A DNA stretch of 64,000 bases from Rhodospirillaceae bacterium (lineage in GTDB: Bacteria; Pseudomonadota; Alphaproteobacteria; SMXQ01). The stretch lies in NCBI GenBank assembly GCA_947474495.1, contig CANJIM010000005.1, positions 27 to 64,026 of the forward strand, written 5' to 3'. A program made the translations under genes and the position numbers. Position 1 is the first letter of the stretch. Each line of letters opens with the position of its first letter. Positions 35,304 through 51,999 of this stretch are shown piece after piece. The notes under the pieces were generated by a model. The model ran no database searches. It was given only the letters and a program-made list of their open reading frames with translations, and was not told the DNA's origin.

Positions 35304-35368
35304 AGGTCTCTCCCTGATGGGGGCTTTAAGCGTTTAAATGGATCGTCGTGTTCATCGTCGCGGACGGC

Positions 35369-37140: not shown

Positions 37141-38388
37141 GTGGCTGAGCAAGCGGACATCGTTATCGTTGGTGCAGGGCAAGCGGGCGGCCGCGCGGCG
37201 CAGGCCGCGCGCCATGCGCCTTTCGCGGGACGCATCGTGCTGATCGGCGATGAGGCACAGCCGCCGTACGAGCGCCCGCCTTTGTCGAAGGACGTGTTGA
37301 CTGGCGCGACGCCCATCGAAAAGACCTATCTCGGCCCGCTCGAGCAATATGAAGAGTTCAAGATCGATCTGTGGACCGGCACGCGCGCCGAGAAACTCGA
37401 TCCTGCCGCGCATAAATTGACGCTGTCGGGCAAGCATGGCGGCGAAATCACCTACAAGAAGCTGCTGATCGTCACCGGCGGCCGCGTCCGCCATCTGCCG
37501 ACCAAGGGCGCCGATCTGTTCGGCGTGCATTACATCCGCACCATCGACGACAGCCTGGCGCTGAAGCCCAAGCTTGTGGCCGGCGCCAAAGTTGTGGTGA
37601 TCGGTGGCGGCTTCATCGGCCTGGAGACCGCCGCGAGCGCCAAGAAACTCGGCTGCGAGGTGACGATTCTCGAGATGCAGCCGACGCTGCTCGGCCGCGT
37701 CTGCGACAAATGGGTCGGCGATTGGTACGTCGGGCTGCATCGCAAGAACGGCGCGACTGTCATCACCCAGGCGGTGATCGATAGCATCGAGGGTGACGGC
37801 AAGGTCACCGGCGTGCGGCTCGGCGACGGTACCGTGCTGCCGGCCGACATCGTGGTGGTCGGCATCGGCATCATCCCCAACGTCGAATTGGCGACCGATG
37901 CCGGCATCGCCGCCAGCAACGGCATCACGGTCGATGAATTCGGCCATACCAGCGCCGCCGATGTTTATGCCGCCGGTGACGTTGCCAACATCCCCGTCCA
38001 CGTGCATGGCATTCAAGCGCGCCTGGAAACCTGGGCGAACGCGCAAAACGGCGGCATCGCGGTGGCGGGAAATATGGTTGCCGAGTTGAAGGGCGAGGCG
38101 CCCAAACCGTTCATGGACACGCCGTGGTTCTGGTCGGATCAGTATGACGTGAACCTGCAGATCGTCGGCGTGCCGACCGGCTGGGACATGGTGGTCACGC
38201 GCGGAAATCCCGATTCGGGCAAGTTCATGCTGTTCTACTTGCACGGCGGCAAGGTGGTCGCGATCAATCTCTTCAACATGGGCCGTGAAGCCCGTTTCGC
38301 GAAGCAGATCGTGCAGGCCGGGAAAGTGCTGGCCGAAGCCGATCTGGCGAACGAAGCCGTGAAGATGGCGGACCTCGCGAAAGCCTGA
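37141..38388 (+). CDS. FAD-dependent ferredoxin--NAD(P)+ reductase (putidaredoxin/Rieske-ferredoxin reductase type)
   Basis: GTG start with AGGGGA upstream. FAD fold IVIVGAGQAGG, NAD fold VVVIGGGFIGLETA, and YAAGDVA. Confidence 0.85.
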   Translation: MAEQADIVIVGAGQAGGRAAQAARHAPFAGRIVLIGDEAQPPYERPPLSKDVLTGATPIEKTYLGPLEQYEEFKIDLWTGTRAEKLDPAAHKLTLSGKHGGEITYKKLLIVTGGRVRHLPTKGADLFGVHYIRTIDDSLALKPKLVAGAKVVVIGGGFIGLETAASAKKLGCEVTILEMQPTLLGRVCDKWVGDWYVGLHRKNGATVITQAVIDSIEGDGKVTGVRLGDGTVLPADIVVVGIGIIPNVELATDAGIAASNGITVDEFGHTSAADVYAAGDVANIPVHVHGIQARLETWANAQNGGIAVAGNMVAELKGEAPKPFMDTPWFWSDQYDVNLQIVGVPTGWDMVVTRGNPDSGKFMLFYLHGGKVVAINLFNMGREARFAKQIVQAGKVLAEADLANEAVKMADLAKA

Positions 38389-38529
38389 TTCAGCGGTCTT
38401 CGCAGGCTTGTCGTCGCTGACTTGATGTTCATGCGTGGACAATCCCGTACGCTTAAACCCTATTATCAGGGCCATAACCGGTCGCTATAACCGGTTCTTT
38501 CGTTTTCAGGGATCAAGGGGACAAGACCA

Positions 38530-40359
38530 ATGGCGACCCGCAACAAGAAATCGTCCGAAGGCAAGCTGGCCCATGCCGATCGTCCGGCGAAGCTCAGCAG
38601 CAATCGCCGCATGGGGTGGAATTCCGACGCCATCGCCGAATTCGCCCAGCGCCTCGATCTGAAATACATGAGCTTGGTGCCGGGCGCGAGCTATCGCGGC
38701 TTCCATGACTCGATCGTCAATTACCTCGGCAACACCAATCCGCAGATGGTCATCTGCATGCACGAGGAACATTCGGTCGCCATCGCCCACGGTTATGCCA
38801 AGGTCACCGAAAAGCCGATGTTTGTCAGCGTGCACAGCAACGTCGGCCTGATGCATGCCAGCATGGCGATCTTCAATGCTTGGTGCGACCGCGTGCCGAT
38901 GATCATCTTCGGCGCCACGGGCCCGGTCGATGCCGACCAGCGCCGGCCGTGGATCGACTGGATCCACACCGCGCGCGATCAGGGCGCTCTGATCCGCGAC
39001 TTCACCAAATGGGACGACCAGCCGGGCTCGGTGCCCGCCACCATCGAAGCCATTGCCCGCGCGCGCCAGATCACCCTGACCGCGCCGAACGGCCCGACCT
39101 ACATCAACCTCGATGCCGGCCTGCAGGAAGGCAAGCTGACGGGCGAGGTCGAATTCCCCGACATGTCGCGCTATGAGCCGGCTGCGCCGCCGGCCCCGCC
39201 GGCCGACAGCATCGCCGCAGCCGCCGATCTTCTCGTCAAGGCGAAGAAGCCGGTGTTCCTGTGCGGCCGCGTCTCGCGTAGCCAAGAAGACTGGGACAAG
39301 CGCGTCGAGCTGGCCGAGGCGATGGGCGCCGTGGTGCTCACCGACATGCACAATTCCTCGGCCTTCCCGACCGAGCATCCGCTGCACGTCGTCGAGGGCC
39401 GCTTCCGTCCGGCTGACGCCACCAAGCAGGTCATCGAGGCCGCCGACGTGATCCTCGCTTACGACTGGCTCGATCTCGCCGGCTTCCTGACGCAATGCAC
39501 CGGCTCGCCCAACGTCAAGGCGAAGGTCATCAACTGCTCGGTCGATATGTATATCCATCGTGGCTGGAGCATGGATTACCAGGCGCTGCCGGCCGCCGAT
39601 CTCTTCATGCTGTCACCGCCCGACGCGGTGACCGGCCCGTTGCTCGCCGCCATCGACAAGAAGACCAAGGGCGCGCGCTTCAAGACGCCGAAGATGAAGA
39701 TCAAGCTGGCCAAGCCGCCGGCGCCGCCCAAGAAGGGCGCCAAGGACGGCATGAGTCTGCGCGAGATGGCGAGCTGCGTCACCGAGGCGCTGGCCGGCAA
39801 GCCGGTGTCCTACGCCCGCGTGTCGCTCGGCTGGCCGGGCTTCGCCAGCAAGTTCACCGGCCCGATGGATTACTACGGCCATGACGGCGGCGGCGGCGTC
39901 GGCTCCGGCCCGGGCATCGCCATCGGCATCGCGCTCGCCCTGATGGGGTCGGGCCGCATTCCGGTCGCCATCGTCGGCGACGGTGACTTCATGATGGGCA
40001 GCAATGCCCTGTGGACCGCCGCGCGCTTCAAGATCCCGTTGTTGATGGTCGTCGCCAACAATCGCTCCTACTACAACGACGAGACCCACCAGGAGCGGAT
40101 GGCCATCGTTCGCGGCCGCCCGGTGGAGAACAAGTGGATCGGCCAGCGCCTCGACGATCCGGCCGTCGACCTGGCCAAGATCGCGGAGGCCCAGGGCATC
40201 GATTCGGAAGGTCCGATCTGGGAGCTGAAGGACTTGCCGGCGGCGCTTGCCCGTGGCGTCAAGGCGGTCCAGGCCGGCAAGCCCTATGTCATCGATGTCC
40301 GTATCGATCCGGGCTATGCCGAGATCAACATGACCACGGCGAGCCGCAAGAAGGGCTGA
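38530..40359 (+). CDS. Thiamine-diphosphate-dependent enzyme (acetolactate-synthase-like superfamily)
   Basis: The N-terminal PYR domain with the HEEHSVAIAHGYA catalytic-Glu region. TPP-binding motif GDGDFMMGSNALWTAARFKIPLLMVVANN. A possible later start lies at 38611 (MGWNSD). Confidence 0.8.
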   Translation: MATRNKKSSEGKLAHADRPAKLSSNRRMGWNSDAIAEFAQRLDLKYMSLVPGASYRGFHDSIVNYLGNTNPQMVICMHEEHSVAIAHGYAKVTEKPMFVSVHSNVGLMHASMAIFNAWCDRVPMIIFGATGPVDADQRRPWIDWIHTARDQGALIRDFTKWDDQPGSVPATIEAIARARQITLTAPNGPTYINLDAGLQEGKLTGEVEFPDMSRYEPAAPPAPPADSIAAAADLLVKAKKPVFLCGRVSRSQEDWDKRVELAEAMGAVVLTDMHNSSAFPTEHPLHVVEGRFRPADATKQVIEAADVILAYDWLDLAGFLTQCTGSPNVKAKVINCSVDMYIHRGWSMDYQALPAADLFMLSPPDAVTGPLLAAIDKKTKGARFKTPKMKIKLAKPPAPPKKGAKDGMSLREMASCVTEALAGKPVSYARVSLGWPGFASKFTGPMDYYGHDGGGGVGSGPGIAIGIALALMGSGRIPVAIVGDGDFMMGSNALWTAARFKIPLLMVVANNRSYYNDETHQERMAIVRGRPVENKWIGQRLDDPAVDLAKIAEAQGIDSEGPIWELKDLPAALARGVKAVQAGKPYVIDVRIDPGYAEINMTTASRKKG

Positions 40360-40382
40360 GTTCCCGCCGCCCAAGACCGATC

Positions 40383-40420
40383 GGGCCGGGTCCGCGATGG
40401 CGGGCCCGGCCCTTTTCTTT
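40383..40420 (+). terminator. Rho-independent terminator after the TPP-enzyme gene
   Basis: GGGCCGGGTCCGC-gatg-GCGGGCCCGGCCC followed by TTTTCTTT (one mismatch in the stem). Confidence 0.7.
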
Positions 40421-40584
40421 GGCGGCGGCGGTTAAAGCCTTTTTGGCCCGTTTCATTGAGCTTATTGCAGGGAATCGCCGTTGCCCGCGTTTGGGCGAGC
40501 GTTTAGGATGCGCCCCTTGCCGATAGCCCCCTGCGCGTTGCCGGGCCGTTCCCGCCTTGACGGGTTTGGGGCTAAATGCAAAGG

Positions 40585-40606
40585 TATCTAATCATTAGAT
40601 ATCAAT
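40585..40606. promoter_or_regulatory. Operator candidate S1: a 17-bp perfect palindrome TATCTAAT-C-ATTAGATA overlapping TTAGATATCAAT
   Basis: The perfect palindrome is read directly from the sequence. The site shares the 12-mer ATTAGATATCAA with S2 (48783-48794). Its centre is about 135 bp upstream of the Rieske-ferredoxin ATG. Confidence 0.6.
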
Positions 40607-40734
40607 CAAACTAGGGCGCTGGGGGCTCGCGGCTTGTTAGGTCGCGCTGTTTTGGCGTCGGGGGATCGGCTCATCGGAGCCGGCATGACCATGATGGCCG
40701 CCCGGGACGGGCGCCGCAGGAGAGAGAACGTTTT

Positions 40735-41046
40735 ATGGCCCAAGAGCACCGCGTAGCGAAAGTCGGCGACATCGAGGCGGAGTCCGGCAAGCATTTCAAG
40801 ATCGGCGACCTCGAAATCGCCGTATGGAATAACGAAGGCAAGTTCTACGCGACCGACGCGATCTGCACCCACGCATGGGTGTCGCTGATCGACGGCTATG
40901 TCGAGGACGGCTGCGTCGAGTGCCCGCTGCATGCGGGGCGCTTCGAGTTGGCCACCGGCAAGGCGCAGGGCGCGCCGGTGTTCGTCGATCTCAAGACCTA
41001 CCCGCTACGCATCGACGGCGACGATATCGTGATCGAGACGCCGTAA
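40735..41046 (+). CDS. Rieske-type [2Fe-2S] ferredoxin component
   Basis: CTHAWVSL...CVECPLHAGRF (C-x-H ... C-x2-H). 103 aa. AGGAGAGAG RBS. Confidence 0.85.
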   Translation: MAQEHRVAKVGDIEAESGKHFKIGDLEIAVWNNEGKFYATDAICTHAWVSLIDGYVEDGCVECPLHAGRFELATGKAQGAPVFVDLKTYPLRIDGDDIVIETP

Positions 41047-41076
41047 GGCGCCACACTCAACCGCAGGGAGGCGGCA

Positions 41077-41670
41077 ATGAGCGATAAGGCGGCCAATCAA
41101 GCTAAAAAGGGCGGCGCGAAAATTCCGCGCATTCCGTTCGAGGACTTCGAGCCGGGCTTGAAAGAGTCTTTGCGCCCGAAGGTCGAGCGCCTGGGCTATT
41201 GCGGCGAGATCTGGCAGATCGGCGCCAATGTGCCGAAGTCGATGCTGTCCTTCTGCAACATCACCGAAGACCTGAAAGACGAAATACCGATGAAGATCGT
41301 CGAGCTCGTCGCGCTCACGGTCGCCGGCGTGATGGACAACACCTACGAGCGCAATCAGCACGAGAACCTTGCCGACAAGCTTGGCTACGGGCGCGACTGG
41401 ATCGCCGCCGTGAATGCGCTGAAGGCCGACGAGGCCGAGGCGCTGTCGCCCGATGAGCGCAAGATTCAGAAGTTCGTCATTGCCGCGATTTATCGCCGTG
41501 GCCAGGATTGCGGCAAGCTGTTCGACGACGTCGTCGAGGCGGTCGGCCCCAAGAGCGCGACCGGCATCCTGCTGTCGATCGGTCGTTGCGTGCAGCATGC
41601 CATTTTCCGCAACGTGCTCGAGCTTGAGCCGCCGGTGAAGTCGATCTTCGAAAAGGGCCAGGCGGCATGA
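41077..41670 (+). CDS. AhpD-like / carboxymuconolactone-decarboxylase-superfamily protein, paralogue A
   Basis: All-helical 197-aa protein with a VALTVAGVMDNTYERNQHENL block. GGGAGG RBS. The family assignment is tentative. Confidence 0.55.
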   Translation: MSDKAANQAKKGGAKIPRIPFEDFEPGLKESLRPKVERLGYCGEIWQIGANVPKSMLSFCNITEDLKDEIPMKIVELVALTVAGVMDNTYERNQHENLADKLGYGRDWIAAVNALKADEAEALSPDERKIQKFVIAAIYRRGQDCGKLFDDVVEAVGPKSATGILLSIGRCVQHAIFRNVLELEPPVKSIFEKGQAA

Positions 41671-42230
41671 GCGACGTCAAAGGTACAGAGCATCTCGTTC
41701 CGCGCATCGCGTTCGAGGACATCGAGCCGAAGCTGAAGGAGCTGTTCCGTCCGCGTGTCGAGCGGCTCGGCTATCTCGGCGAGTTCTTTCGAGTCATGTC
41801 GGCGCAGCCCGAGACCATGCTCGGCTATTTCACCATCACCGAGAGTTTGAAGAAGGCGCTGCCGGACAACTTCACCGAGATCATCTCGCTGTCGATCTCC
41901 AGCCGCCTCGGCAATCTCTACGAGCAGTATCAGAACGAGCAGCTGAGCCGCAAACTCGGTTTCTCCGACGAGTGGATCCGCGAAGCCCTCGAAGGGCAGG
42001 GCGCTAGCCAGCTGTTCGACGCCAAGGAAAAGGCCGTGCAGGACTACGCTATCGCCGCGGCGCTGCGCTCGGGCCGCGACGTCGAAGCCGAGTTCGAAGC
42101 CTTGGTCAAGGCCGTCGGTCCCGAGCAGGCCATTGCCGTCGTCTGGCTCGTCATCCGCACGGTGTCGCACGCCATCATCAGCAACACGCTGCAGCTGGCT
42201 TCGCCGGTCAAATCGATTTTCGCCGTATAA
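41667..42230 (+). CDS. AhpD-like / CMD-superfamily protein, paralogue B
   Basis: ATGA overlap with paralogue A. It aligns with A along its full length (PRI.FED.EP.LKE..RP.VERLGY.GE ... SPVKSIFA). The equivalent block reads LYEQYQNEQL. Confidence 0.55.
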   Translation: MSDVKGTEHLVPRIAFEDIEPKLKELFRPRVERLGYLGEFFRVMSAQPETMLGYFTITESLKKALPDNFTEIISLSISSRLGNLYEQYQNEQLSRKLGFSDEWIREALEGQGASQLFDAKEKAVQDYAIAAALRSGRDVEAEFEALVKAVGPEQAIAVVWLVIRTVSHAIISNTLQLASPVKSIFAV

Positions 42231-42255
42231 TCAGAAGAAATCTCCAGGAGCCATC

Positions 42256-43263: not shown

Positions 43264-43289
43264 TCTCTCTCGACGAGACGGAGGAACAA

Positions 43290-44429: not shown

Positions 44430-44430
44430 C

Positions 44431-45363: not shown

Positions 45364-45387
45364 GCGCGTCTTTTTCTGCAGAACCGA

Positions 45388-45421
45388 AGCCCGGCGGAGA
45401 GATCCGCCGGGCTTTTTCTTT
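45388..45421 (+). terminator. Rho-independent terminator ending the 40735-45363 operon
   Basis: AGCCCGGCGG-agagat-CCGCCGGGCT followed by TTTTCTTT. Confidence 0.8.
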
Positions 45422-45603
45422 GCGCAGAGAGAGACTTCATGCGTCGCCGCGCATTGATGGATATTTCGGATAGATCGGCTGACCAAGCCGCCGGGCATGG
45501 AACCAATTCCTAACCGAAATCGTTAGTTGTCAGTTAGTCTGGAATAATGCTGAAACGCGCTGCTGTTCTCGTGATTCGCGCCTTGTAGACCGAGCGAGAT
45601 GGC

Positions 45604-46824: not shown

Positions 46825-46860
46825 AAAAACCCGGCGAGGTGAAGCGCCGGGTTTTTTTGT
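46824..46860. terminator. Bidirectional rho-independent terminator
   Basis: AAAAAAACCCGGCG-aggtgaag-CGCCGGGTTTTTTT between convergent genes. Confidence 0.8.
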
Positions 46861-46871
46861 TTCGCTCTTTT

Positions 46872-47387
46872 TTAAAGCGGGTAGACGATCGTAGCCGGCA
46901 CCATTTCCGAATCATAGACGCAGAGACGCTCTTTCAGTTTCAACGCGCCGCCTTGGCGCGTGAAAATGTCCATGTAGCGGCCGGCGTTGAGAATCTTGGT
47001 GTATTCGCCGGGCAGCGTCTCCAGCACCTGATAGTTCGCTTCGGCCCGTACCGTGTCGCCCCCCGTCGCGTCATGGGCCACGCTGCGGATGCGCGTGTTG
47101 GTGATGAAATGGCGCAGGTAGCGCTTGCGGTAGACCGTCGTCTTGGTGACGCCGACGACACGGTCGGTCAGGCCGCCATGGCCCTCGGCGTAAATCACCG
47201 CGAGCGGCAGGTTCTGTTCGAGGTTCTCGCGCGGCAGCACCTTGTAGATGCAGTCCGGCGTGAAGAAGCCGATCCAGTCGTTCAAATCGCCGTCGTCGAG
47301 GCAATCGGCATAGGCGGTATTGAATTCATCGATCTCAGCGCGGAGCGCGGCAAGGTCTTCGGCGCGGAGCTTGGTGGTCGTGGTCAT
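46872..47387 (-). CDS. Aromatic-ring-hydroxylating oxygenase beta (small, NTF2-like) subunit
   Basis: DEFNTAYADCLDDGDLNDWIGFFTPDCIYKV...RHFITNTRI...GRYMD is typical of the small subunit. The ATG lies 2 nt after the alpha stop; the alternative TTG at 47393 overlaps it. Confidence 0.85.
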   Translation of the reverse strand: MTTTTKLRAEDLAALRAEIDEFNTAYADCLDDGDLNDWIGFFTPDCIYKVLPRENLEQNLPLAVIYAEGHGGLTDRVVGVTKTTVYRKRYLRHFITNTRIRSVAHDATGGDTVRAEANYQVLETLPGEYTKILNAGRYMDIFTRQGGALKLKERLCVYDSEMVPATIVYPL

Positions 47388-47389
47388 GT

Positions 47390-48643
47390 TCAAAGCCCCA
47401 TCACTTTGCGGTAGCCGTCATAGAAGGCGCGAATCGCCGTTTCGGTGACCATATGGTCGGTATCCTCGACGCCGCGCCCACCCATCTCGACCACCGCGTC
47501 GCTGGCGGCATATTTCGAGATGCCGGCCTGGATCGCTTCCATCACTTCCGAATCGTCGGCCGAGACATAGCCAGCCGGGCCCATCAGATTGGCCTGGCGC
47601 AAGCGCTTCTGCGTCATTTCCTCGGACTCGTCGGCGAAACCGAAGTAGGTCCAGTGAAGTTCGAACTCTTCCGGGCCGACGAGATGAATCTGGCGCATCG
47701 CCAGCGTGTTGGACTGCTGCTGCACCATCAGGTTCGGCCAGATGGTCTGCATCACCACGGTTGCTTCGCCAGGGAATTCTTTTTCCGGCTGTAGCATCAG
47801 AGGATTGGCGAGGGTGAAACTCGCCTGGTTCTGACGGATGTCGGCGGTTGTGTCGTCGGCCTTCTTCTCGCCGCGCTGCGAGACCAGCACGGAATGCAGG
47901 CCGAGCTTCTCGTCCATCTGCACCTTCGACGGGTTGTCGGCGCGGAACAGGCTGAAGGAGACGAGGAACACATGCAGCAGGGAGGCGTGGTAGGGGTCCT
48001 TGATATTCTCGAACACCAGCTTCCAATTGCAGCGGATGCGTTGGCGCTGATAGCCGAGCACCTTCAACGGACGGCCGCTGAAAACACGGTCGAACCAGCC
48101 GACCATCTTGGGACCGATATATTCCTCGAACGACGGCATGGAATGATCGAAGCTGGCGAAGATCACGCCGTGGCGCGTCGCCACTTTCAGCTTCTGCAGG
48201 CCGTTCGCCTTCATGTCGAAGTCGCCCGGCATGCCGCCCTGCTTTTGCAGACCGCGGCGGAAGGGCACGGCGGTGGTCTCGCCCTTCAGATTGTAAGTCC
48301 ACTGATGGTAGGGGCAGATGAATTCGGTTTTGCCAGAGCCGTGCATGTCGTAGCAGAACTGCACGCCGCGATGGGCGCAGCGATTGACCACGACCTGCAC
48401 CTGACCGTCCTCGTCGCGCATGAAGATCACAGGCTTGTCGCCGACCTTGGTCTGGCGGAAGTCGCCAGGCTTCGGAATTTCGCATTCAAGGCCAATGTAA
48501 TTGTAGCTGGCGCCGCCGAACACCATCTCCTGCTCGCGCTTGTAAATCTCCGGCGAGGAATAGACCCAATAGGGCACCCGCGACGGGCCTTCCTTCGGCC
48601 ATTTGAGATTGAGCAAATTGTCGGTCTGTACGGCGGTGGCCAT
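47390..48643 (-). CDS. Rieske non-haem iron oxygenase alpha (large) subunit
   Basis: Rieske CAHRGVQFC...CPYHQWTY. Iron site NWKLVFENIKDPYHASLLH. The ATG at 48643 has CAGGGA 8 nt upstream; the tracked ORF starts at 48652. Confidence 0.9.
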   Translation of the reverse strand: MATAVQTDNLLNLKWPKEGPSRVPYWVYSSPEIYKREQEMVFGGASYNYIGLECEIPKPGDFRQTKVGDKPVIFMRDEDGQVQVVVNRCAHRGVQFCYDMHGSGKTEFICPYHQWTYNLKGETTAVPFRRGLQKQGGMPGDFDMKANGLQKLKVATRHGVIFASFDHSMPSFEEYIGPKMVGWFDRVFSGRPLKVLGYQRQRIRCNWKLVFENIKDPYHASLLHVFLVSFSLFRADNPSKVQMDEKLGLHSVLVSQRGEKKADDTTADIRQNQASFTLANPLMLQPEKEFPGEATVVMQTIWPNLMVQQQSNTLAMRQIHLVGPEEFELHWTYFGFADESEEMTQKRLRQANLMGPAGYVSADDSEVMEAIQAGISKYAASDAVVEMGGRGVEDTDHMVTETAIRAFYDGYRKVMGL

Positions 48644-48780
48644 CGGTCGCATCCCTGTTCTGTATGCCGGTAGCTGCGGCGGGTGTCCGGAGACGCTGGG
48701 GCGACGATGGGCTTTTGGCCGGACATCGCGGGAGTTGATCCCGTCATTCGTCCCGCAGCGTGAGTGGCTCTCCTGAACAA

Positions 48781-48795
48781 AGATTAGATATCAAA
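48781..48795. promoter_or_regulatory. Operator candidate S2: AGATTAGATATCAAA
   Basis: It contains the same 12-mer ATTAGATATCAA as S1. Its centre is about 147 bp upstream of the oxygenase alpha start, in the divergent spacer. Confidence 0.55.
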
Positions 48796-48969
48796 TTAAA
48801 TTCGCCGGAGCAAGCGGAACGGCTCTGCCAGCAGCATTTGTGACCTGCAGTTTCTTCAGCGTGACCAGGTTTGCGTGATTTTTTTGCGGATGCGCAATGC
48901 AGCAGTTATGCGCAGCTAATTTGAGTGTCGGAAAAAATCCGGCTTGGGCGGGCGAAAAAGCCGTGCCTA

Positions 48970-48985
48970 TGATTAGACATCTAAC
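48970..48985. promoter_or_regulatory. Operator candidate S3: TGATTAGACATCTAAC
   Basis: TTAGACATCTAA matches the palindrome TTAGATATCTAA at 11 of 12 positions. Its centre is about 147 bp upstream of the TAXI-TRAP SBP ATG. Confidence 0.55.
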
Positions 48986-49124
48986 GGCTGGCGGAGGTGG
49001 GGATCATTACCCGCCCGGCAATCGACCAGCCGACGGGGAGAGACGTTCCAGAAGATCGCCATAACGGATCGATCCGCGCCGCAGAACGTCGGCGCGAACA
49101 GAAATCGACAGGAAGGACTGGGAG

Positions 49125-50123
49125 ATGCGGAAGATCGCTTTAGCATGCGCGGCCGTTGCCGGCATGACCTTCGCAATGATGTCGGGCGCCGTTCAGGCGC
49201 AGCCCTATCAGATCTCGCTGGCCGGCGCGAGCCCGGGCGGTTTGTGGTCGAACATCGGCATCGGCATGGATCAGGTGATGAAGGCCGCCTATCCCGGCTC
49301 GACCGTCACCTATCAGACCACCGGCGGCGGCTTCGCCAACGCCATCCTCTTGCAGCAGAAAAAGGTGCCGATCGGCATTATCCACAATGTGGAGCTGAGG
49401 ATGGCGCAGAACGGCGTCGATCCTTTCAAAGCGCCGATCACGGAGATTCGTCCGCTCGCTTATCTTTACGATTGGTCGCCGTTTCAGCTCCTCCTGACCA
49501 AGGACTTCGCCGACAAGTACGGGATCAAGACGTTCGAGGATCTGATCGTCAAGAAGGCGCCGGTGCGCATGGTACTCAACCGCCGCGGCAACGTCGCCCA
49601 TGACGTCGCCATCAGCATGCTGAAGGTCAACGGCGCCAGCCTTGACGACATCAAGGCCTGGGGGGGCAACGTCGTGCTCGCTGGCTCGGAAGAGCAGAGC
49701 GACTTGATGAAGGACCGCCGCGTCGACATGATCTTCAACAGCCTGTTCGTCGGCATCCGCTCGCTCGTCGAAGTTGGCACGTCAGTCAACGTCGTCATGT
49801 TGCCGGTCGGCAAGGAGACCGTCGACAAGGTCGGCAAGGAGATGGGCACGGATCCCTATGTTATTAAGGCCAACTCCTACCCGTTCCAGCCAAGCGATGT
49901 CCCGACGCTGACCATGGGCGCCTTCGTCGCGGCCAACAAAGACATGCCGGACGCGCAGGCTCAGGCAATCACCAAGGCTCTCATCGAGAAGATCGACGCC
50001 ATGCGCGCCGTGCATCCGTCGATGAAGGAATTGACGCCGCAGCTGCTGCCCAGTCTGGCCGGCAATTTCCCCTACCATCCCGGTGCCATCGCAGCCTACA
50101 AGGCGGCCGGCTTGATGAAGTGA
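49125..50123 (+). CDS. TAXI-family TRAP transporter solute-binding protein
   Basis: Signal peptide MRKIALACAAVAGMTFAMMSGAVQA. ISLAGASPGGLWSNIGIGM and YQTTGGGFANAILL are typical of the TAXI/immunogenic-protein family. Confidence 0.8.
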   Translation: MRKIALACAAVAGMTFAMMSGAVQAQPYQISLAGASPGGLWSNIGIGMDQVMKAAYPGSTVTYQTTGGGFANAILLQQKKVPIGIIHNVELRMAQNGVDPFKAPITEIRPLAYLYDWSPFQLLLTKDFADKYGIKTFEDLIVKKAPVRMVLNRRGNVAHDVAISMLKVNGASLDDIKAWGGNVVLAGSEEQSDLMKDRRVDMIFNSLFVGIRSLVEVGTSVNVVMLPVGKETVDKVGKEMGTDPYVIKANSYPFQPSDVPTLTMGAFVAANKDMPDAQAQAITKALIEKIDAMRAVHPSMKELTPQLLPSLAGNFPYHPGAIAAYKAAGLMK

Positions 50124-50160
50124 GTCGAGCCTAGTCTATTCGTCAGTCGGAGTTCGTTCA

Positions 50161-51999
50161 GTGTCCGTCGCGGAAGTTCTGTTCAGCACCGGCATGCAGC
50201 GCCAGCTTTCGCCGGCGATGGATGCTGCGGTTAAACCGGTCGGTGTGGCGATCACCTGCGGGGTGATCTATTCCACGGTCATCGCCACGCCCGACCTGTT
50301 CGCCATGACGACGATCTTCCTGTCGGCGGTGCTGGCGCTCTGCTTCCTCACCATCACGCCGACGTCGAAGGAAGCCGATCGCATCCATCCGATCGATTGG
50401 CTGTTGGCGACGGCGTCGGTGGCGGTCGGCATCTTCTTCGCCATGAATACGAAGATGCTGATCGAGCGCATCGCCCTGTTCGACGATCTGTCGACGCAGG
50501 AGATGATTTTCGGAAGTCTGCTGCTGTTCCTGGTGGTAGAAATTTCGCGGCGCGCGACCGGCCTTGGCCTCACTGTGCTGGTACTGATGTTTTTCGCCTA
50601 TAACCTATGGGGCCATGTCCTGCCCGGCGCCATGGGCCACGGCTATATCTCCTACGGCCATTTCCTCGACCTCATCGCTTTTACCACCGACGGCATCTTC
50701 GGCGGACCGCTGCGCGTTGCGGCGACCTACGCCTTCCTCTTCGTGCTGTTCGGCGCTGTGCTCAACAAGGCCAAGGGTGGCGAGTTCTTCTTCGATATTG
50801 CCTCGGCCATGACCGGCCGCGCCGTCGGCGGCCCAGCCAAGATCGCCGTGGTCTCATCCGGCCTCTATGGCACCATCTCGGGCAATCCGGTGGCCGACGT
50901 GGTGACCACCGGCGCCGTGACCATTCCGGTGATGAAGCGCCTCGGCTATCCCGCCGCGCTCGCCGGCGGCATCGAGGTCGCGGCCTCGACCGGCGGCAGC
51001 TTGGCGCCGCCAGTGATGGGCTCTGCCGCTTTCATCATGGCGGAATACACCAGCATTCCCTATGCCGACATCGCCATTGCGGCGACCCTGCCGGCCTTCC
51101 TTTATTACCTCGGCGTCTACGCCCAAGTGCATCTCTACGCCGCCAAGCACAAGCTGCGCGGCCTGGAGGACGAAGTGCTGCCGAAGGTGCTGCCGACGCT
51201 GTTGCGCGGTTGGGTTTTCATCGTGCCGCTGGTGGTGCTCGTCGTCTTCATCATTCTCGGCTATTCCGCCAACCTGACGGCGATCGGCGCGACCATTGCC
51301 GTTTTCCTGATGACGCTGTTCGACAAGCGCACGCGGCTCGGCGTGATTGCCATTTATGACGTGCTGGCGGAGGCGGCGCTCCGCATGGTGCCGGTGGCCG
51401 GCGCTTGCGCCGCGGCCGGGCTTATCGTTGGCGCACTCAGCATGACAGGGCTCTCGGTGAAATTCGTCGACGTCATCACGCTGCTGACCGGCGACAGCCT
51501 GTTCCTCACCCTACTTGTTACCGCGCTGCTCACGCTGCTGCTCGGCCTCGGCTTGCCGACCTCGAGCTCTTACATCCTGGCCGCCGTGCTGATCGCGCCA
51601 GTGTTGACCAGGCTCGGCCTCTCGGTGATGGCCGCGCATATGTTCATTCTCTATTACGCCGTGCTGTCGGCGCTGACGCCGCCGGTCGCAGTGGCGGGCT
51701 ATGCCGCGGCGGCCATCGCGCAGGCCAATCCGCTGACGATCTCGGTGCTGGCCTGCCGCATGTCGATCGTCGCTTTTATCGCGCCCTTCAGCTTCGCCTA
51801 TGGCGAGTCGCTGTTGCTGGTCGGTGAATGGTACGTGATCCTCGCCACTTTGATCTCCGCGTCGCTCGGCGTGATCCTGTTGGCGGTTGGGTTGGAAGGC
51901 TATTTCCGCCAGCCGTTGAACAGGCCCTTGCGCGCGCTGGCCGCTATAGCCGGCTTGGTGTTCCTAGCGCCGGCGGCGTTCTACTCGATTTTCGATTAA
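50161..51999 (+). CDS. TRAP transporter fused permease (TAXI-type small+large membrane component)
   Basis: 612 aa, highly hydrophobic throughout. It directly follows the TAXI SBP. GTG start, uncertain. Confidence 0.8.
   Translation: MSVAEVLFSTGMQRQLSPAMDAAVKPVGVAITCGVIYSTVIATPDLFAMTTIFLSAVLALCFLTITPTSKEADRIHPIDWLLATASVAVGIFFAMNTKMLIERIALFDDLSTQEMIFGSLLLFLVVEISRRATGLGLTVLVLMFFAYNLWGHVLPGAMGHGYISYGHFLDLIAFTTDGIFGGPLRVAATYAFLFVLFGAVLNKAKGGEFFFDIASAMTGRAVGGPAKIAVVSSGLYGTISGNPVADVVTTGAVTIPVMKRLGYPAALAGGIEVAASTGGSLAPPVMGSAAFIMAEYTSIPYADIAIAATLPAFLYYLGVYAQVHLYAAKHKLRGLEDEVLPKVLPTLLRGWVFIVPLVVLVVFIILGYSANLTAIGATIAVFLMTLFDKRTRLGVIAIYDVLAEAALRMVPVAGACAAAGLIVGALSMTGLSVKFVDVITLLTGDSLFLTLLVTALLTLLLGLGLPTSSSYILAAVLIAPVLTRLGLSVMAAHMFILYYAVLSALTPPVAVAGYAAAAIAQANPLTISVLACRMSIVAFIAPFSFAYGESLLLVGEWYVILATLISASLGVILLAVGLEGYFRQPLNRPLRALAAIAGLVFLAPAAFYSIFD

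What the first reader, a model, noticed from the sequence alone, without database searches (positions are those of the whole stretch)
37141..51999. Orphan 15-kb catabolic supercluster: split three-component Rieske system, bicupin, and an unusual lower pathway
A complete three-component oxygenase is present but scattered. The reductase is at 37141, the Rieske ferredoxin at 40735, and the alpha/beta oxygenase at 46872-48643 on the opposite strand. From memory, the alpha subunit resembles the salicylate-5-hydroxylase (NagG) / anthranilate-type subfamily. Together with a gentisate-dioxygenase-like bicupin this suggests hydroxylation of a substituted benzoate followed by ring cleavage. The expected maleylpyruvate isomerase and hydrolase are absent. 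In their place the locus encodes a TPP enzyme, two AhpD/CMD-like paralogues, an ornithine-cyclodeaminase/mu-crystallin-family enzyme (imine or amine chemistry) and a DapA-like class I aldolase. A TAXI-TRAP importer for an anionic substrate is also present. An amino- or N-heterocyclic aromatic acid is a reasonable guess for the substrate, but this enzyme set does not match any pathway I know.
Basis: inference. Interest (0 to 1): 0.68.

Follow-up and report, generated by a model that had tools for sequence, protein, structure and literature searches.

The report
Uncharacterised aromatic-acid breakdown gene cluster
This is a real, conserved set of genes in an uncultured freshwater or soil bacterium that most likely imports an aromatic acid, opens its ring and splits it into pyruvate and a small aldehyde; its middle steps use enzyme families not known in this role, but the pathway type is familiar.

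Summary
Every gene named is at its stated coordinates and intact. Synteny extends the unit upstream to 33822, adding UbiD decarboxylase, MarR and a TauE permease; it ends at 51999.

The oxygenase alpha subunit is 52% identical to salicylate 5-hydroxylase NagG. The bicupin is a domain-swapped, distant relative of gentisate/salicylate dioxygenases. It keeps the 3-His iron site but lacks four residues reported as conserved in all of them. The two unnamed paralogues have an AhpD/CMD fold without the CxxC motif.

OCD, bicupin and the DapA-like enzyme form a conserved core in Alphaproteobacteria, Binatia, Ralstonia, Paraburkholderia, Cupriavidus and probably Achromobacter. Natural OCD-bicupin fusions exist. 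In Ralstonia, Cupriavidus and two MAGs the DapA-like gene is replaced by HpaH, usually with HpaI (plus succinate-semialdehyde dehydrogenase in Ralstonia).

I therefore infer that the lower pathway runs through a seven-carbon diacid to pyruvate and a succinate-semialdehyde-type aldehyde, not through nitrogen chemistry. A shared GATTAGAYATC box upstream of two units suggests co-regulation.

The substrate is unknown, and I found no characterised orthologue. This is a new variant of a known kind, of moderate interest.

The parts
33767..33796 (-). Intrinsic terminator after UbiD; end of the TauE-MarR-UbiD unit
   Evidence: 13-bp stem followed by a T run. Nucleotide homology to related MAG loci begins at about 33760-33860.
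33822..35303 (-). UbiD-family (prFMN) aromatic-acid decarboxylase
   Evidence: Pfam UbiD, UbiD_C and UbiD_N. Best solved relative is 7pda, 366 bits, which is phenazine-1-carboxylate decarboxylase PhdA (PMC10850782). It is 75-99% identical and syntenic in all related alphaproteobacterial loci that reach it. A second UbiD clade sits in UbiD-MarR-bicupin-DapA operons elsewhere.
35369..35905 (-). MarR-family regulator
   Evidence: Pfam MarR. Called as 178 aa on identical contigs. A MarR gene also flanks the core in L059, L054 and L061.
36096..36863 (-). TauE/SafE (TSUP) family anion permease
   Evidence: Pfam TauE, 103 bits. Syntenic at 44-96% identity in the alphaproteobacterial group. Its role, whether uptake or export of a small anion, was not determined.
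37141..38388 (+). Ferredoxin-NAD(P)+ reductase of the Rieske oxygenase
   Evidence: Pyr_redox_2 plus Reductase_C. NCBIfam HcaD 343 bits and AndAa 337 bits, both below cut-off.
38530..40359 (+). TPP-dependent enzyme (benzoylformate-decarboxylase-like); accessory, role unknown
   Evidence: Three TPP domains. NCBIfam PRK08327 224 bits. Best solved relatives are benzoylformate decarboxylases. Present only in the closest relatives, L010 and L035, with 36-39% homologues in L053 and L056.
40383..40412 (+). Intrinsic terminator after the FdR-TPP unit
   Evidence: 13-bp stem with 12 GC pairs, then a T run.
40583..40603 (.). Inverted pair of the GATTAGAYATC box, about 135 bp upstream of the ferredoxin gene; candidate operator
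   Evidence: All 4 matches (up to 1 mismatch) in the 64-kb window lie here and upstream of alpha; 0.92 expected by chance. The same position is conserved in L007, L008, L009, L011 and L049. One copy lies upstream of alpha in the distant locus L059.
40735..41046 (+). Rieske-type [2Fe-2S] ferredoxin
   Evidence: Pfam Rieske. NCBIfam AndAb 91 bits. The CxH and CxxH motifs are visible in the translation.
41077..41670 (+). X1: AhpD/CMD-fold protein without the CxxC motif
   Evidence: No Pfam hit. Profile versus PDB 3lvy gives E 0.0025, with N-x-Y-E aligned to the C-x-x-C region. Homologues carry PF02627. AlphaFold pLDDT 92.9; Foldseek hits 3lvy, 6e8l and 6ohi at TM 0.73-0.83.
41667..42230 (+). X2: paralogue of X1 (40% identical), overlapping its stop codon; probable partner subunit
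   Evidence: Alignment A2. The tandem pair is conserved in the alphaproteobacterial group. Ralstonia and Paraburkholderia have a single copy.
42256..43263 (+). OCD/mu-crystallin-family NAD(P) oxidoreductase
   Evidence: Pfam 160 bits. No NCBIfam equivalog cut-off is reached. Next to the bicupin in 29 of 49 well-flanked loci. Fused to the bicupin in P0362 and P0432.
43290..44429 (+). Domain-swapped bicupin, probable Fe(II) ring-cleaving dioxygenase
   Evidence: Only gentisate, salicylate and 5-nitrosalicylate dioxygenases match in the PDB. His285, His287, His326 and His328 are invariant in the C-terminal cupin. The N-terminal cupin has lost its His residues. Residues reported as conserved in all gentisate dioxygenases (Gln108, Arg127, Trp172, Asp174) are Thr274, Asn293, Glu337 and Thr339 here.
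44431..45363 (+). DHDPS-family class I aldolase, inferred hydratase-aldolase of the lower pathway
   Evidence: Pfam DHDPS 246 bits. TIGR02313 'HpaI-NOT-DapA' 294 bits is the best hit; dapA 270 bits is above its 206 cut-off. T44/T45, Y107, Y133, R138 and K161 of E. coli DapA are conserved. Immediately downstream of the bicupin in 28 of 49 loci and replaced by HpaH (usually with HpaI) in L087, L089, L056 and L060.
45386..45415 (+). Intrinsic terminator after the Fd-X1-X2-OCD-bicupin-DapA operon
   Evidence: Perfect 12-13 bp stem, then a T run.
45604..46824 (+). Response-regulator/EAL (c-di-GMP phosphodiesterase) gene; probable passenger, not part of the pathway
   Evidence: Pfam Response_reg plus EAL. 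Lowest third-position GC in the block, 0.69 against 0.80-0.92. Present only in the closest relatives, at 64-81% identity.
46872..47393 (-). Rieske oxygenase beta subunit
   Evidence: Pfam Ring_hydroxyl_B and SnoaL_4. NCBIfam AndAd 112 bits.
47390..48643 (-). Rieske oxygenase alpha subunit, NagG/AndAc/TphA2 clade
   Evidence: Pfam Rieske plus Ring_hydroxyl_A. 7c8z NagG 464 bits, 52% identity; TphA2 331 bits. AndAc model 446 bits, below its 750 cut-off. The Rieske motifs and the DPYHxxxxH iron motif are intact in the alignment.
48782..48981 (.). Two further GATTAGAYATC boxes (48782-48792 and 48971-48981) in the divergent alpha/TAXI promoter region
49125..50123 (+). TAXI-type TRAP substrate-binding protein
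   Evidence: Pfam NMT1_3, 132 bits. A TAXI/TRAP pair is adjacent in most alphaproteobacterial relatives, but identity and orientation vary, and L009 has none.
50161..51999 (+). Fused TRAP membrane component
   Evidence: Pfam DctM, 262 bits, in a 612-aa protein.

Best explanation
The block 33822-51999 is one MarR-controlled catabolic locus for an anionic aromatic acid. The substrate most likely carries a carboxyl group with an adjacent hydroxyl at the ring-opening stage.

Proposed order of steps:
1. Uptake by the TAXI-TRAP system.
2. Hydroxylation by the three-component NagG-like Rieske oxygenase (alpha/beta, Rieske ferredoxin, reductase).
3. Where the substrate carries an extra carboxyl, its removal by the UbiD decarboxylase.
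4. Oxygen-dependent ring fission by the domain-swapped 3-His bicupin, giving a 2-oxo-dienedioate-type seven-carbon product.
5. One two-electron NAD(P)H reduction of that product by the OCD-family enzyme. The family's usual chemistry is hydride transfer to the carbon next to the carboxylate.
6. Isomerisation and/or decarboxylation by the Cys-less AhpD/CMD-fold pair X1/X2, giving a 2-oxohept-ene-1,7-dioate-type compound.
7. Hydration and aldol cleavage by the DHDPS-like enzyme, giving pyruvate and a succinate-semialdehyde-type aldehyde.

Shown here: the gene families, their conservation as a unit, the OCD-bicupin fusion, the replacement of the DapA-like gene by HpaH/HpaI, and the shared promoter motif.

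Inferred: every reaction, the order of the UbiD step, the site of the OCD reduction, the role of X1/X2, and the substrate. A salicylate-type compound, or a carboxylated salicylate such as a hydroxybenzenedicarboxylate, fits the redox bookkeeping best.
For: One unit:
- The order UbiD-MarR-TauE / FdR-(TPP)-Fd-X1-X2-OCD-bicupin-DapA / beta-alpha / TRAP recurs in 29 related MAG loci, down to about 67% bicupin identity.
- Smaller versions recur in other phyla: MarR-X-OCD-bicupin-DapA in L054, MarR / alpha-beta-OCD-bicupin-DapA-ALDH in L059, and UbiD-MarR-bicupin-DapA in L061.
- Of 49 loci with at least 6 kb on both sides, 28 have the DapA-like gene, 29 OCD, 20 the oxygenase and 21 a UbiD.

OCD and bicupin act together:
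- Two independent cluster representatives are OCD-bicupin fusion proteins. In P0362 the OCD part is 44% identical to the window's OCD over its whole length.

Lower pathway:
- In Ralstonia (L087) the order is X-OCD-bicupin-HpaH-HpaI-SSADH.
- In Cupriavidus necator N-1 (L089) the cluster is FdR-SnoaL-HpaH-HpaI-LysR-Fd-FAH-OCD-bicupin-beta-alpha.
- HpaH scores 451 and 446 bits against a 351.5 cut-off. HpaI scores 389 and 402 against 368.8. The Ralstonia SSADH scores 714 against 646.
- Paraburkholderia keeps bicupin-DapA-like (64% identical)-X-OCD.
- The DapA-like protein's best model is TIGR02313, the DapA variant that NCBI records as standing in for HpaI.
- It keeps Arg138, which binds the distal carboxylate in DapA (the role of Arg138 is from my own knowledge).

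Redox bookkeeping (my own arithmetic): a salicylate-type ring (C7H6O3) plus O2 gives C7H6O5. The HpaH substrate is C7H8O5. The difference is exactly one two-electron reduction, and the core holds exactly one NAD(P) oxidoreductase.

X1/X2: in Cupriavidus an HpaG-like FAH-family isomerase/decarboxylase is present where X is absent.

Co-regulation: all four GATTAGAYATC boxes in 64 kb lie upstream of the Fd operon and of alpha/TAXI. The positions are conserved in five related species, and one copy lies upstream of alpha in the distant locus L059.

Oxygenase: a complete set with intact motifs, 52% identical to NagG.
Against: - No enzyme here has been assayed, and the substrate is unknown.
- OCD-family enzymes are known for imine and amino-acid chemistry, not for reducing ring-fission products. 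The proposed step has no precedent.
- The bicupin lacks Gln108, Arg127, Trp172 and Asp174. These are reported as conserved in all gentisate/salicylate dioxygenases, and changing Arg127 abolished activity (PMC11264262). It may bind a different kind of substrate, or catalyse something other than salicylate-type cleavage.
- The alpha subunit's nearest characterised relative makes gentisate. The gentisate fission product would need two reductions to reach the HpaH/HpaI substrates.
- The UbiD's closest solved relatives act on N-heteroaromatic acids.
- The window itself has no aldehyde dehydrogenase.
- The roles of TPP and TauE are unexplained.
- FdR-TPP and TauE-MarR-UbiD lack the shared box.
Confidence: 0.45

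Rival explanations
1. A variant gentisate pathway. The oxygenase is a true salicylate 5-hydroxylase and the bicupin a gentisate 1,2-dioxygenase. OCD, X1/X2 and the DapA-like enzyme are a new way of disposing of maleylpyruvate, for example by reduction followed by aldol or retro-Claisen cleavage, in place of the isomerase and FAH hydrolase.
For: - The alpha subunit is 52% identical to NagG, its best characterised relative.
- The only solved relatives of the bicupin are gentisate, salicylate and 5-nitrosalicylate dioxygenases.
- MarR regulators commonly respond to salicylate-like ligands (own knowledge).
- No maleylpyruvate isomerase or hydrolase is encoded, so something else must take that role.
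Against: - Maleylpyruvate (C7H6O6) needs four reducing equivalents to reach the HpaI substrate (C7H10O6), and the core has only one oxidoreductase.
- The bicupin lacks four of the residues reported as conserved in all gentisate dioxygenases. It scores 61 bits against a cut-off of 442 for the gentisate dioxygenase model.
- Compact operons without any hydroxylase also exist.
- This reading gives the UbiD no role.
Confidence: 0.2
2. A nitrogen-containing substrate. An aminosalicylate-type or N-heteroaromatic acid is cleaved to a product carrying an alpha-imino acid end. OCD reduces the imine. The DapA-like enzyme then runs the dihydrodipicolinate synthase reaction backwards, giving pyruvate and aspartate semialdehyde.
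For: - All characterised OCD-family members act on alpha-imino or alpha-amino acids (NCBIfam list, PDB list).
- The DapA-like protein keeps every DHDPS catalytic residue, including Arg138, and passes the dapA model cut-off.
- The UbiD's closest solved relatives decarboxylate phenazine-1-carboxylate and pyrrole-2-carboxylate.
- Paralogous bicupin loci in the same genomes carry an amine oxidase and an isochorismatase-type hydrolase.
Against: - In Ralstonia and Cupriavidus the DapA-like enzyme is replaced by HpaH and HpaI scoring above their family cut-offs. In Ralstonia a succinate-semialdehyde dehydrogenase that passes its subfamily cut-off follows. These act on nitrogen-free C7 diacids.
- No deaminase, amidase or aminotransferase is conserved in the core.
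- A ring nitrogen would interrupt the seven-carbon chain that HpaH/HpaI need (my own reasoning).
Confidence: 0.15
3. The cluster is a version of the dipicolinate (dip) catabolic cluster. The oxygenase makes 3-hydroxydipicolinate, the bicupin opens the pyridine ring, and OCD and the DapA-like enzyme handle dipicolinate-like intermediates.
For: - Dipicolinate is a C7 dicarboxylate that is hydroxylated by an O2-dependent multicomponent monooxygenase, and the functions of the other dip genes are unknown (PMC11472048).
- The OCD and DHDPS families both handle (tetrahydro)dipicolinate-like molecules (own knowledge).
- Achromobacter, a known dipicolinate degrader, has a conserved GntR-linked cluster of Rieske oxygenase, FAH, OCD, cupin and NTF2 (10.1101/2025.07.18.665491).
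Against: - The window's regulator is MarR, not the GntR/FadR-type DipR.
- The related Cupriavidus necator N-1 locus shows no enrichment of the DipR box GTATAC, and none of the ORFs scanned with Pfam there is a GntR gene; the ORFs at its two edges were listed but not scanned.
- From my memory of the abstract of the dipD paper (not held here), DipD has no similarity to known oxygenases, whereas this alpha subunit is a plain NagG relative.
- Cleaving 3-hydroxydipicolinate next to the nitrogen would give C2 plus C5 fragments, not a C7 diacid (my own reasoning).
Confidence: 0.05
4. The genes are neighbours by chance or belong to several unrelated pathways. For example, the oxygenase, the bicupin operon and the UbiD unit each serve a different substrate.
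For: - There are six separate transcription units on both strands, with strong terminators between them.
- TPP, RR-EAL and the TRAP system vary among close relatives.
- The FdR-TPP and TauE-MarR-UbiD units lack the shared box.
Against: - The order is conserved across 29 loci, and the oxygenase, UbiD and OCD are repeatedly and independently linked to the bicupin in other phyla.
- The ferredoxin gene heads the bicupin operon, while its oxygenase and reductase lie in other units, so the units depend on each other.
- A shared operator-like box lies upstream of the Fd operon and of alpha/TAXI.
Confidence: 0.05

Closest known systems
Salicylate 5-hydroxylase NagGH with NagAa/NagAb (Ralstonia sp. U2) and anthranilate 1,2-dioxygenase AndAcAdAbAa
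   Same: Three-component Rieske oxygenase with alpha and beta subunits, a Rieske-type ferredoxin and a glutathione-reductase-type reductase. The alpha subunit is 52% identical to NagG. All four components give their best or near-best NCBIfam hits to the And proteins.
   Different: Every And model score is far below its cut-off, for example 446 against 750 for alpha. The genes are split over three transcription units. The downstream genes are not those of the gentisate or catechol pathways. The substrate and the position hydroxylated are unknown.
Gentisate / salicylate 1,2-dioxygenases (e.g. PDB 3bu7, 2d40, 2phd)
   Same: Bicupin with a 3-His iron motif (HRH...H) and the second-shell His162 equivalent (H328). 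These are the only solved relatives.
   Different: The domain order is reversed: the iron-binding cupin is C-terminal. The other cupin has lost its His residues. Gln108, Arg127, Trp172 and Asp174 are replaced by invariant Thr, Asn, Glu and Thr. The match is only 67-79 bits. The family is small, with 64 clusters at E<=1e-30 among 1.84 billion representatives.
Lower homoprotocatechuate pathway: HpaG, HpaH and HpaI plus succinate-semialdehyde dehydrogenase
   Same: In Ralstonia and Cupriavidus relatives, HpaH and HpaI scoring above their family cut-offs follow the bicupin. Ralstonia adds SSADH and Cupriavidus has an HpaG-like protein. The window's DapA-like enzyme best matches the DapA variant that NCBI records as replacing HpaI.
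   Different: The window has no HpaH, HpaI or aldehyde dehydrogenase. The route from the ring to the C7 enedioate uses a cupin dioxygenase, an OCD-family enzyme and an AhpD-fold protein in place of HpaD, HpaE, HpaF and HpaG.
PhdI / PhdJ / PhdK of phenanthrene degradation in Nocardioides sp. KP7 (recalled from memory, not tested here)
   Same: A gentisate-dioxygenase-like enzyme opens an ortho-hydroxy aromatic acid. A DHDPS/NAL-family hydratase-aldolase then releases pyruvate and a carboxy-aldehyde, which an aldehyde dehydrogenase oxidises.
   Different: That system has no OCD or AhpD-fold partner. The window's aldolase is closer to true DHDPS than to anything else in the PDB. I could not obtain the PhdJ or NahE sequences to compare.
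Achromobacter conserved Rieske oxygenase cluster (bioRxiv 10.1101/2025.07.18.665491)
   Same: The paper lists the four oxygenase genes plus an FAH-family protein, an OCD-family protein, a cupin protein and an NTF2 protein as neighbours, and reports the oxygenase cluster in 16 genomes. This is the same gene set as in Cupriavidus necator N-1.
   Different: It is regulated by a GntR-family protein. It has only been modelled in silico, as an 'HcaA1'-type dioxygenase, and no substrate or pathway was shown. I could not compare sequences.

Membership tests
Rieske non-haem iron oxygenase, NagG/AndAc/TphA2 clade (three-component) | Alpha subunit with a Rieske CxH...CxxH motif and a mononuclear-iron His-His-Asp catalytic domain | tested here: met
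   Pfam Rieske plus Ring_hydroxyl_A. CAHRG / CPYHQW and DPYHASLLH align with NagG.
Rieske non-haem iron oxygenase, NagG/AndAc/TphA2 clade (three-component) | Beta subunit, Rieske-type ferredoxin and FAD reductase all present | tested here: met
   The genes lie in three different transcription units.
Rieske non-haem iron oxygenase, NagG/AndAc/TphA2 clade (three-component) | Orthology to a characterised enzyme (score above the NCBIfam equivalog cut-off) | tested here: not met
   AndAc 446 against 750, AndAd 112 against 230, AndAb 91 against 150, AndAa 337 against 650. 52% identity to NagG.
Rieske non-haem iron oxygenase, NagG/AndAc/TphA2 clade (three-component) | Salicylate 5-hydroxylase or anthranilate dioxygenase activity | not testable with these tools
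   Needs an enzyme assay.
Gentisate / salicylate 1,2-dioxygenase | Bicupin with a 3-His Fe(II) site | tested here: met
   H285, H287 and H326 are invariant and align with the iron ligands. The site is in the C-terminal cupin, not the N-terminal one.
Gentisate / salicylate 1,2-dioxygenase | Active-site residues Gln108, Arg127, His162, Trp172 and Asp174, reported as conserved in all members | tested here: not met
   Only His162 (H328) is kept. The others are T274, N293, E337 and T339, all invariant within this family. The residue list comes from PMC11264262.
Gentisate / salicylate 1,2-dioxygenase | Score above the curated family cut-off | tested here: not met
   TIGR02272 61 bits against 442. 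The 5-aminosalicylate dioxygenase model scores 74 against 650.
AhpD / carboxymuconolactone decarboxylase superfamily (X1, X2) | All-helical AhpD-like fold | tested here: met
   Model pLDDT 92.9. Foldseek TM 0.73-0.83 to 3lvy, 6e8l, 6ohi and 2prr.
AhpD / carboxymuconolactone decarboxylase superfamily (X1, X2) | CxxC redox motif of AhpD-type peroxidases | tested here: not met
   The motif position reads N-x-Y-E-x-x-Q-H in X1 and in the family consensus; Asn88, Tyr90, Glu91 and Gln94 are invariant in A2, and the His is Asn in the X2 clade. Peroxidase or thiol-redox activity is therefore unlikely.
Ornithine cyclodeaminase / mu-crystallin | Family domain with a Rossmann NAD(P) site | tested here: met
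   PF02423 160 bits over 302 residues. A GSGHQA motif is visible in the translation.
Ornithine cyclodeaminase / mu-crystallin | Orthology to a characterised member (cyclodeaminase, ketimine or iminosuccinate reductase, alanine dehydrogenase) | tested here: not met
   The best NCBIfam score is 148 against 417. All 14 models are far below their cut-offs.
4-hydroxy-tetrahydrodipicolinate synthase (DapA) | Catalytic Lys161, Tyr133, Thr44, Tyr107 and Arg138 | tested here: met
4-hydroxy-tetrahydrodipicolinate synthase (DapA) | Curated model cut-off | tested here: met
   TIGR00674 270 bits against 206. However, TIGR02313 'HpaI-NOT-DapA' scores higher (294) while staying below its own 397 cut-off.
4-hydroxy-tetrahydrodipicolinate synthase (DapA) | A role in lysine biosynthesis | tested here: inconclusive
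   The context argues against it. The gene lies 1 bp after the bicupin's stop codon in a catabolic operon, is linked to the bicupin in 28 of 49 loci, and is replaced by HpaH (usually with HpaI) in four lineages. Whether a housekeeping dapA exists elsewhere in this genome is not visible in the window.
UbiD (prFMN) decarboxylase | Three UbiD domains | tested here: met
   The best solved relative is PhdA, 366 bits. No UbiX gene is in the window.
TAXI-TRAP transporter | TAXI binding protein plus a fused DctQM-type membrane protein | tested here: met
   NMT1_3 132 bits. DctM 262 bits in a 612-aa protein.
dip (dipicolinate) cluster of Alcaligenes faecalis JQ135 | GntR/FadR regulator DipR with GTATAC operators | tested here: not met
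   The window has MarR and a different box. The related Cupriavidus locus shows no GTATAC enrichment, and no GntR gene among the ORFs scanned with Pfam; its edge ORFs were not scanned.
dip (dipicolinate) cluster of Alcaligenes faecalis JQ135 | Orthology to DipA-DipM | not testable with these tools
   The sequences and the describing paper are not held.

The most novel reading that the evidence does not exclude
The core X1X2-OCD-bicupin-DapA encodes a previously undescribed 'reductive' ring-fission route. A remodelled, domain-swapped cupin dioxygenase opens an ortho-hydroxy aromatic acid. An OCD/mu-crystallin enzyme, sometimes fused to it, acts in a new role as the reductase of the ring-fission product. 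A Cys-less AhpD-fold protein acts as isomerase or decarboxylase. The route feeds the homoprotocatechuate-type hydratase/aldolase step. It would be widespread in uncultured soil and freshwater bacteria and also present in Ralstonia solanacearum, Paraburkholderia, Cupriavidus and Achromobacter.
Probability: 0.3. Interest if true: 0.7.

Novelty: new variant of a known kind. Interest (0 to 1): 0.55.

Why it matters
If the proposed scheme is right, it adds a new way for aerobic bacteria to take an aromatic acid from ring opening to central metabolism. It would also give new catalytic roles to two large families that are poorly understood outside amino-acid and peroxide chemistry: OCD/mu-crystallin and AhpD/CMD.

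The module is not a curiosity of one uncultured organism. It recurs in many soil and lake Alphaproteobacteria and Binatia. It also occurs in culturable, genetically tractable bacteria, including the plant pathogen Ralstonia solanacearum and the opportunist genus Achromobacter, so it can be tested directly.

It also exposes annotation errors. Automatic pipelines will name these genes 'gentisate 1,2-dioxygenase', 'ornithine cyclodeaminase' and '4-hydroxy-tetrahydrodipicolinate synthase'. The context suggests that none of these is their function.

Tried and rejected
- Megablast of 8 kb of the cluster against plasmids gave only short hits in Rieske and EAL genes. No close relative on a plasmid was found.
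- Single-sequence AlphaFold of X1 was unusable at pLDDT 42. I repeated it with a 44-sequence alignment.
- Dipicolinate (dip) cluster. I read the DipR paper. It does not give the gene functions. The dipD paper and the 1962 pathway paper are not held. The regulator type and operator do not match, so I kept this only as a low-probability rival.
- Phenazine-1-carboxylate degradation, prompted by the UbiD/PhdA match. The Mycobacterium phenazine cluster uses extradiol and naphthalene-type dioxygenases and has no OCD, cupin or DHDPS genes. Rejected as an orthologue.
- Sulfonate catabolism, prompted by TauE, a TPP enzyme resembling Xsc and a nearby sulfite/nitrite reductase. The Xsc models score 96-97 bits against cut-offs of 620-676, and the reductase is syntenic in only one relative. 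Rejected.
- Hydroxyproline or pipecolate catabolism (OCD plus a DHDPS-like deaminase). This does not explain the oxygenase, the bicupin or the HpaH/HpaI replacement. Rejected.
- Six of the ten literature searches found nothing describing this module. A further search gave only the in-silico Achromobacter preprint.
- The paralogous bicupin loci in the same genomes have different neighbours: a Crp regulator, an amine oxidase and an isochorismatase. They gave no clue to the substrate.
- A CTATGAATTTT direct repeat upstream of FdR is not conserved in relatives, so I did not count it as an operator.

Full report
**1. The observation**

All are intact ORFs with the high third-position GC of real genes in this 62% GC sequence.

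Pfam and NCBIfam give the following:
- a glutathione-reductase-type ferredoxin reductase (37141-38388)
- a three-domain TPP enzyme (38530-40359)
- a Rieske ferredoxin (40735-41046)
- an OCD/mu-crystallin protein (42256-43263)
- a cupin protein (43290-44429)
- a DHDPS-family protein (44431-45363)
- Rieske oxygenase beta and alpha subunits on the minus strand (46872-47393 and 47390-48643)
- a TAXI binding protein and a fused TRAP permease (49125-51999)

The recalled NagG resemblance is right. The best solved relative of the alpha subunit is salicylate 5-hydroxylase NagG, at 464 bits and 52% identity. Terephthalate dioxygenase TphA2 follows at 331 bits. The AndAc model scores 446 bits but stays below its cut-off of 750.

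No GST-type isomerase or FAH-type hydrolase lies in the block.

**2. The two unnamed paralogues**

X1 (41077-41670) and X2 (41667-42230) give no Pfam hit of their own. They are 40% identical to each other, and their reading frames overlap by four bases.

Three results place them in the AhpD/CMD superfamily:
- A profile of the family matches the CMD-family structure 3lvy at E 0.0025.
- Many homologues carry PF02627.
- An AlphaFold model built on 44 sequences (pLDDT 92.9) superposes on CMD, AhpD and Bmp8 structures at TM 0.73-0.83.

The CxxC motif of the redox members is replaced. In X1 and the family consensus it reads N-x-Y-E-x-x-Q-H, and the Asn, Tyr, Glu and Gln are invariant.

**3. The bicupin**

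It matches only gentisate, salicylate and 5-nitrosalicylate dioxygenases in the PDB, and only weakly. The two cupins are in the reverse order: its C-terminal cupin aligns with their N-terminal catalytic cupin.

The three iron-binding His residues and the second-shell His (H285, H287, H326, H328) are invariant. The N-terminal cupin has lost its His residues.

Gln108, Arg127, Trp172 and Asp174 are described as conserved in all gentisate dioxygenases, and changing Arg127 abolished activity (PMC11264262). Here they are invariant Thr274, Asn293, Glu337 and Thr339.

It is therefore a relative of these enzymes but not a member in the strict sense, and its pocket is remodelled. The clade is small. Only 64 clusters reach E<=1e-30 among 1.84 billion representatives, and classical gentisate dioxygenases appear only as weak two-segment hits.

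**4. Extent and organisation**

Identical or near-identical copies occur on 16 metagenome contigs. A scan of one genome per species returned 80 loci, all from MAGs: Alphaproteobacteria, Binatia, 'delta proteobacteria', Bryobacterales and others.

In 29 alphaproteobacterial loci the order is UbiD-MarR-TauE / FdR-(TPP)-Fd-X1-X2-OCD-bicupin-DapA / beta-alpha / TRAP. This holds down to about 67% bicupin identity.

Nucleotide homology to the nearest species (86-89%) starts at about 33.8 kb, which is the end of the UbiD gene. It continues through the TRAP genes and, in most of these relatives, through the adjacent CtaA gene to about 53-54 kb. CtaA is a cytochrome oxidase assembly gene and has no evident link to the pathway. 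The other flanking genes are also unrelated: a chemoreceptor, BLUF, NikR and a histidine kinase upstream, and a sulfite/nitrite reductase downstream. I therefore place the unit at 33822-51999, not 37141-51999, and it has a regulator.

Strong terminators follow UbiD, TPP and DapA. That gives six transcription units.

The TPP gene is found only in the closest relatives, in L010 and L035, and as 36-39% homologues in L053 and L056. The RR-EAL gene is found only in the closest relatives and has the lowest third-position GC in the block. I treat TPP as accessory and RR-EAL as a passenger. The TRAP genes differ in identity and orientation even among close relatives.

**5. The conserved core and what it implies**

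Outside the alphaproteobacterial group, smaller versions recur:
- MarR-X-OCD-bicupin-DapA, as a compact operon between unrelated genes (L054)
- MarR / alpha-beta-OCD-bicupin-DapA, followed by a luciferase-like monooxygenase, an aldehyde dehydrogenase and a class II aldolase (L059 and five sister loci)
- UbiD-MarR-bicupin-DapA, with a different UbiD clade (L061 and five others)

Among 49 loci with at least 6 kb on each side, the DapA-like gene accompanies the bicupin in 28, OCD in 29, the oxygenase in 20, a UbiD in 21 and X in 17.

Two independent cluster representatives are single polypeptides with OCD at the N-terminus and the bicupin at the C-terminus. In P0362 the OCD part is 44% identical to the window's OCD over its whole length. 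This argues that the two enzymes act on consecutive intermediates.

**6. Cultured relatives give the key clue**

A protein search of plasmids and secondary replicons found the bicupin at 52% identity in Ralstonia solanacearum, 50% in Paraburkholderia and 42% in Cupriavidus necator N-1.

- Ralstonia: two-component flavin monooxygenase, NTF2, X, OCD, bicupin, HpaH, HpaI, succinate-semialdehyde dehydrogenase, a second aldehyde dehydrogenase.
- Paraburkholderia: bicupin, DapA-like (64% identical, annotated there as 2,4-dihydroxyhept-2-ene-1,7-dioate aldolase), X, OCD.
- Cupriavidus: FdR, SnoaL-like, HpaH, HpaI, LysR, Fd, an HpaG-like FAH protein, OCD, bicupin, beta, alpha, an ABC transporter, an aldehyde dehydrogenase.

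HpaH and HpaI in both organisms, and the Ralstonia SSADH, score above the curated cut-offs. HpaH, with or without HpaI, also replaces the DapA-like gene in two MAG lineages, L056 and L060.

The window's DapA-like protein scores best against TIGR02313, the DapA variant that NCBI records as replacing HpaI. It keeps all DHDPS catalytic residues, including Arg138.

I conclude that the DapA-like enzyme does the job of HpaH plus HpaI: hydration and aldol cleavage of a 2-oxohept-ene-1,7-dioate-type compound to pyruvate and a succinate-semialdehyde-type aldehyde. This is an inference from non-orthologous replacement, not a measurement.

**7. Proposed mechanism**

Shown:
- the gene families
- their linkage
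- the fusion
- the replacement

Inferred:
1. An anionic aromatic acid is imported by the TAXI-TRAP system.
2. It is hydroxylated by the NagG-like oxygenase and, where it carries an extra carboxyl, decarboxylated by UbiD.
3. The bicupin opens the ring.
4. OCD performs one two-electron reduction.
5. X1/X2 isomerise and/or decarboxylate. In Cupriavidus, which has no X, an HpaG-like isomerase/decarboxylase is present in the cluster.
6. The DapA-like enzyme releases pyruvate and the aldehyde.

The redox count favours a salicylate-type ring at the cleavage step. C7H6O3 plus O2 gives C7H6O5, and the HpaH substrate is C7H8O5, so exactly one reduction is needed. The core has exactly one NAD(P) oxidoreductase.

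A chemically economical version is hydride transfer to C2 of the 2-oxo-dienedioate, followed by a proton shift to the 2-hydroxy-2,4-dienedioate. This is speculation.

Gentisate would need two reductions. A carboxylated salicylate (a hydroxybenzenedicarboxylate) would also fit, and it would give roles to UbiD, to a decarboxylase-type X and to a dicarboxylate importer.

The pairing of a gentisate-dioxygenase-like enzyme with a DHDPS-family hydratase-aldolase has a precedent in PhdI/PhdJ of phenanthrene degradation. I recall this from memory and could not test it.

**8. Regulation**

All four matches (up to one mismatch) to GATTAGAYATC in the 64-kb window fall in cluster promoters. An inverted pair lies about 135 bp upstream of the ferredoxin gene, and two copies lie in the divergent alpha/TAXI region. 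Chance would give 0.92 matches anywhere in the window.

The positions are conserved in five related species. One copy lies between MarR and alpha in the distant locus L059.

This suggests a common operator, plausibly for MarR, covering the Fd-DapA operon, alpha/beta and the transporter. The FdR-TPP and TauE-MarR-UbiD units lack it. Co-induction remains untested.

**9. Rivals**

- A variant gentisate pathway is the main alternative. The NagG similarity supports it. The redox count and the missing gentisate-dioxygenase residues argue against it.
It fits the usual chemistry of the OCD and DHDPS families and the UbiD's similarity to PhdA and HudA. It conflicts with the HpaH/HpaI/SSADH replacement and with the absence of any conserved deaminase.
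- A link to the dipicolinate dip cluster was attractive but lacks support. The regulator and operator differ, and the describing paper is not held.

**10. Novelty and verdict**

I found no characterised orthologue in the literature held.

The only paper touching the module is an in-silico preprint. It lists Rieske oxygenase, FAH, OCD, cupin and NTF2 genes as neighbours in Achromobacter and assigns no function.

The locus is an aromatic-acid catabolic cluster of a familiar overall type, with an uncharacterised middle section. The verdict is a new variant of a known kind, of moderate interest, and testable in cultured carriers.

Noticed in passing
window 45604-46824: A response-regulator/EAL (c-di-GMP phosphodiesterase) gene is inserted between the DapA-like gene and the oxygenase beta subunit. 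It has the lowest third-position GC in the block (0.69) and is present only in the closest relatives, at 64-81% identity. It looks like a recent insertion.
   Followed up: partly
P0362 (687 aa) and P0432 (534 aa): These are natural single-chain OCD-bicupin fusion proteins. Their genomic context could not be fetched because they came from the representative search.
   Followed up: partly
L030, L033, L036-L048 (e.g. L036 9050-15835; L041 4790-15740): The same MAGs carry a second bicupin paralogue (62-69% identical) in a different context: a Crp-family regulator, a flavin amine oxidase and an isochorismatase-type hydrolase. In L041 an OCD paralogue, TauE, an acyl-CoA dehydrogenase and a CoA-transferase lie within 7 kb. 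This may be a separate pathway, possibly handling a nitrogen-containing substrate.
   Followed up: partly
window 49125-51999 compared with L007, L011, L049, L009: The transporter next to the cluster is swapped among close relatives. L008 shares the window's TAXI-TRAP at 88-90% identity. L007, L011 and L049 have a 54-59% identical pair on the other strand. L009 has none.
   Followed up: no
window 36985-37025 and about 37075-37090: A CTATGAATTTT direct repeat (two copies, 30 bp apart) lies upstream of FdR. It is specific to this strain. A CATGCTAACCAC element nearby is conserved in L007, L011 and L013 and may be a promoter or operator element for the FdR-TPP unit.
   Followed up: partly
L087 5425-9916 (Ralstonia solanacearum CP049788.1): Upstream of the Ralstonia core lie a MarR gene, a short gene annotated 'homogentisate 1,2-dioxygenase' with no NCBIfam hit, a BKACE-family gene, an HsaA-like two-component flavin monooxygenase with its reductase, and an NTF2 protein. 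This suggests that a different hydroxylase feeds the same core in that organism.
   Followed up: partly
window 53285-59105: Downstream of the cluster lie a 722-aa nitrite/sulfite reductase-family protein and a 1171-aa protein with a pyridine-nucleotide disulfide oxidoreductase domain. The reductase is syntenic in only one relative (L009), so it is probably unrelated to the cluster.
   Followed up: no
window 26486-31369: Upstream neighbours include a 2OG-Fe(II) oxygenase, a ferric-reductase-like membrane protein, a chemoreceptor immediately followed by a BLUF blue-light sensor, and a NikR homologue. None is syntenic with the cluster in the relatives examined.
   Followed up: no
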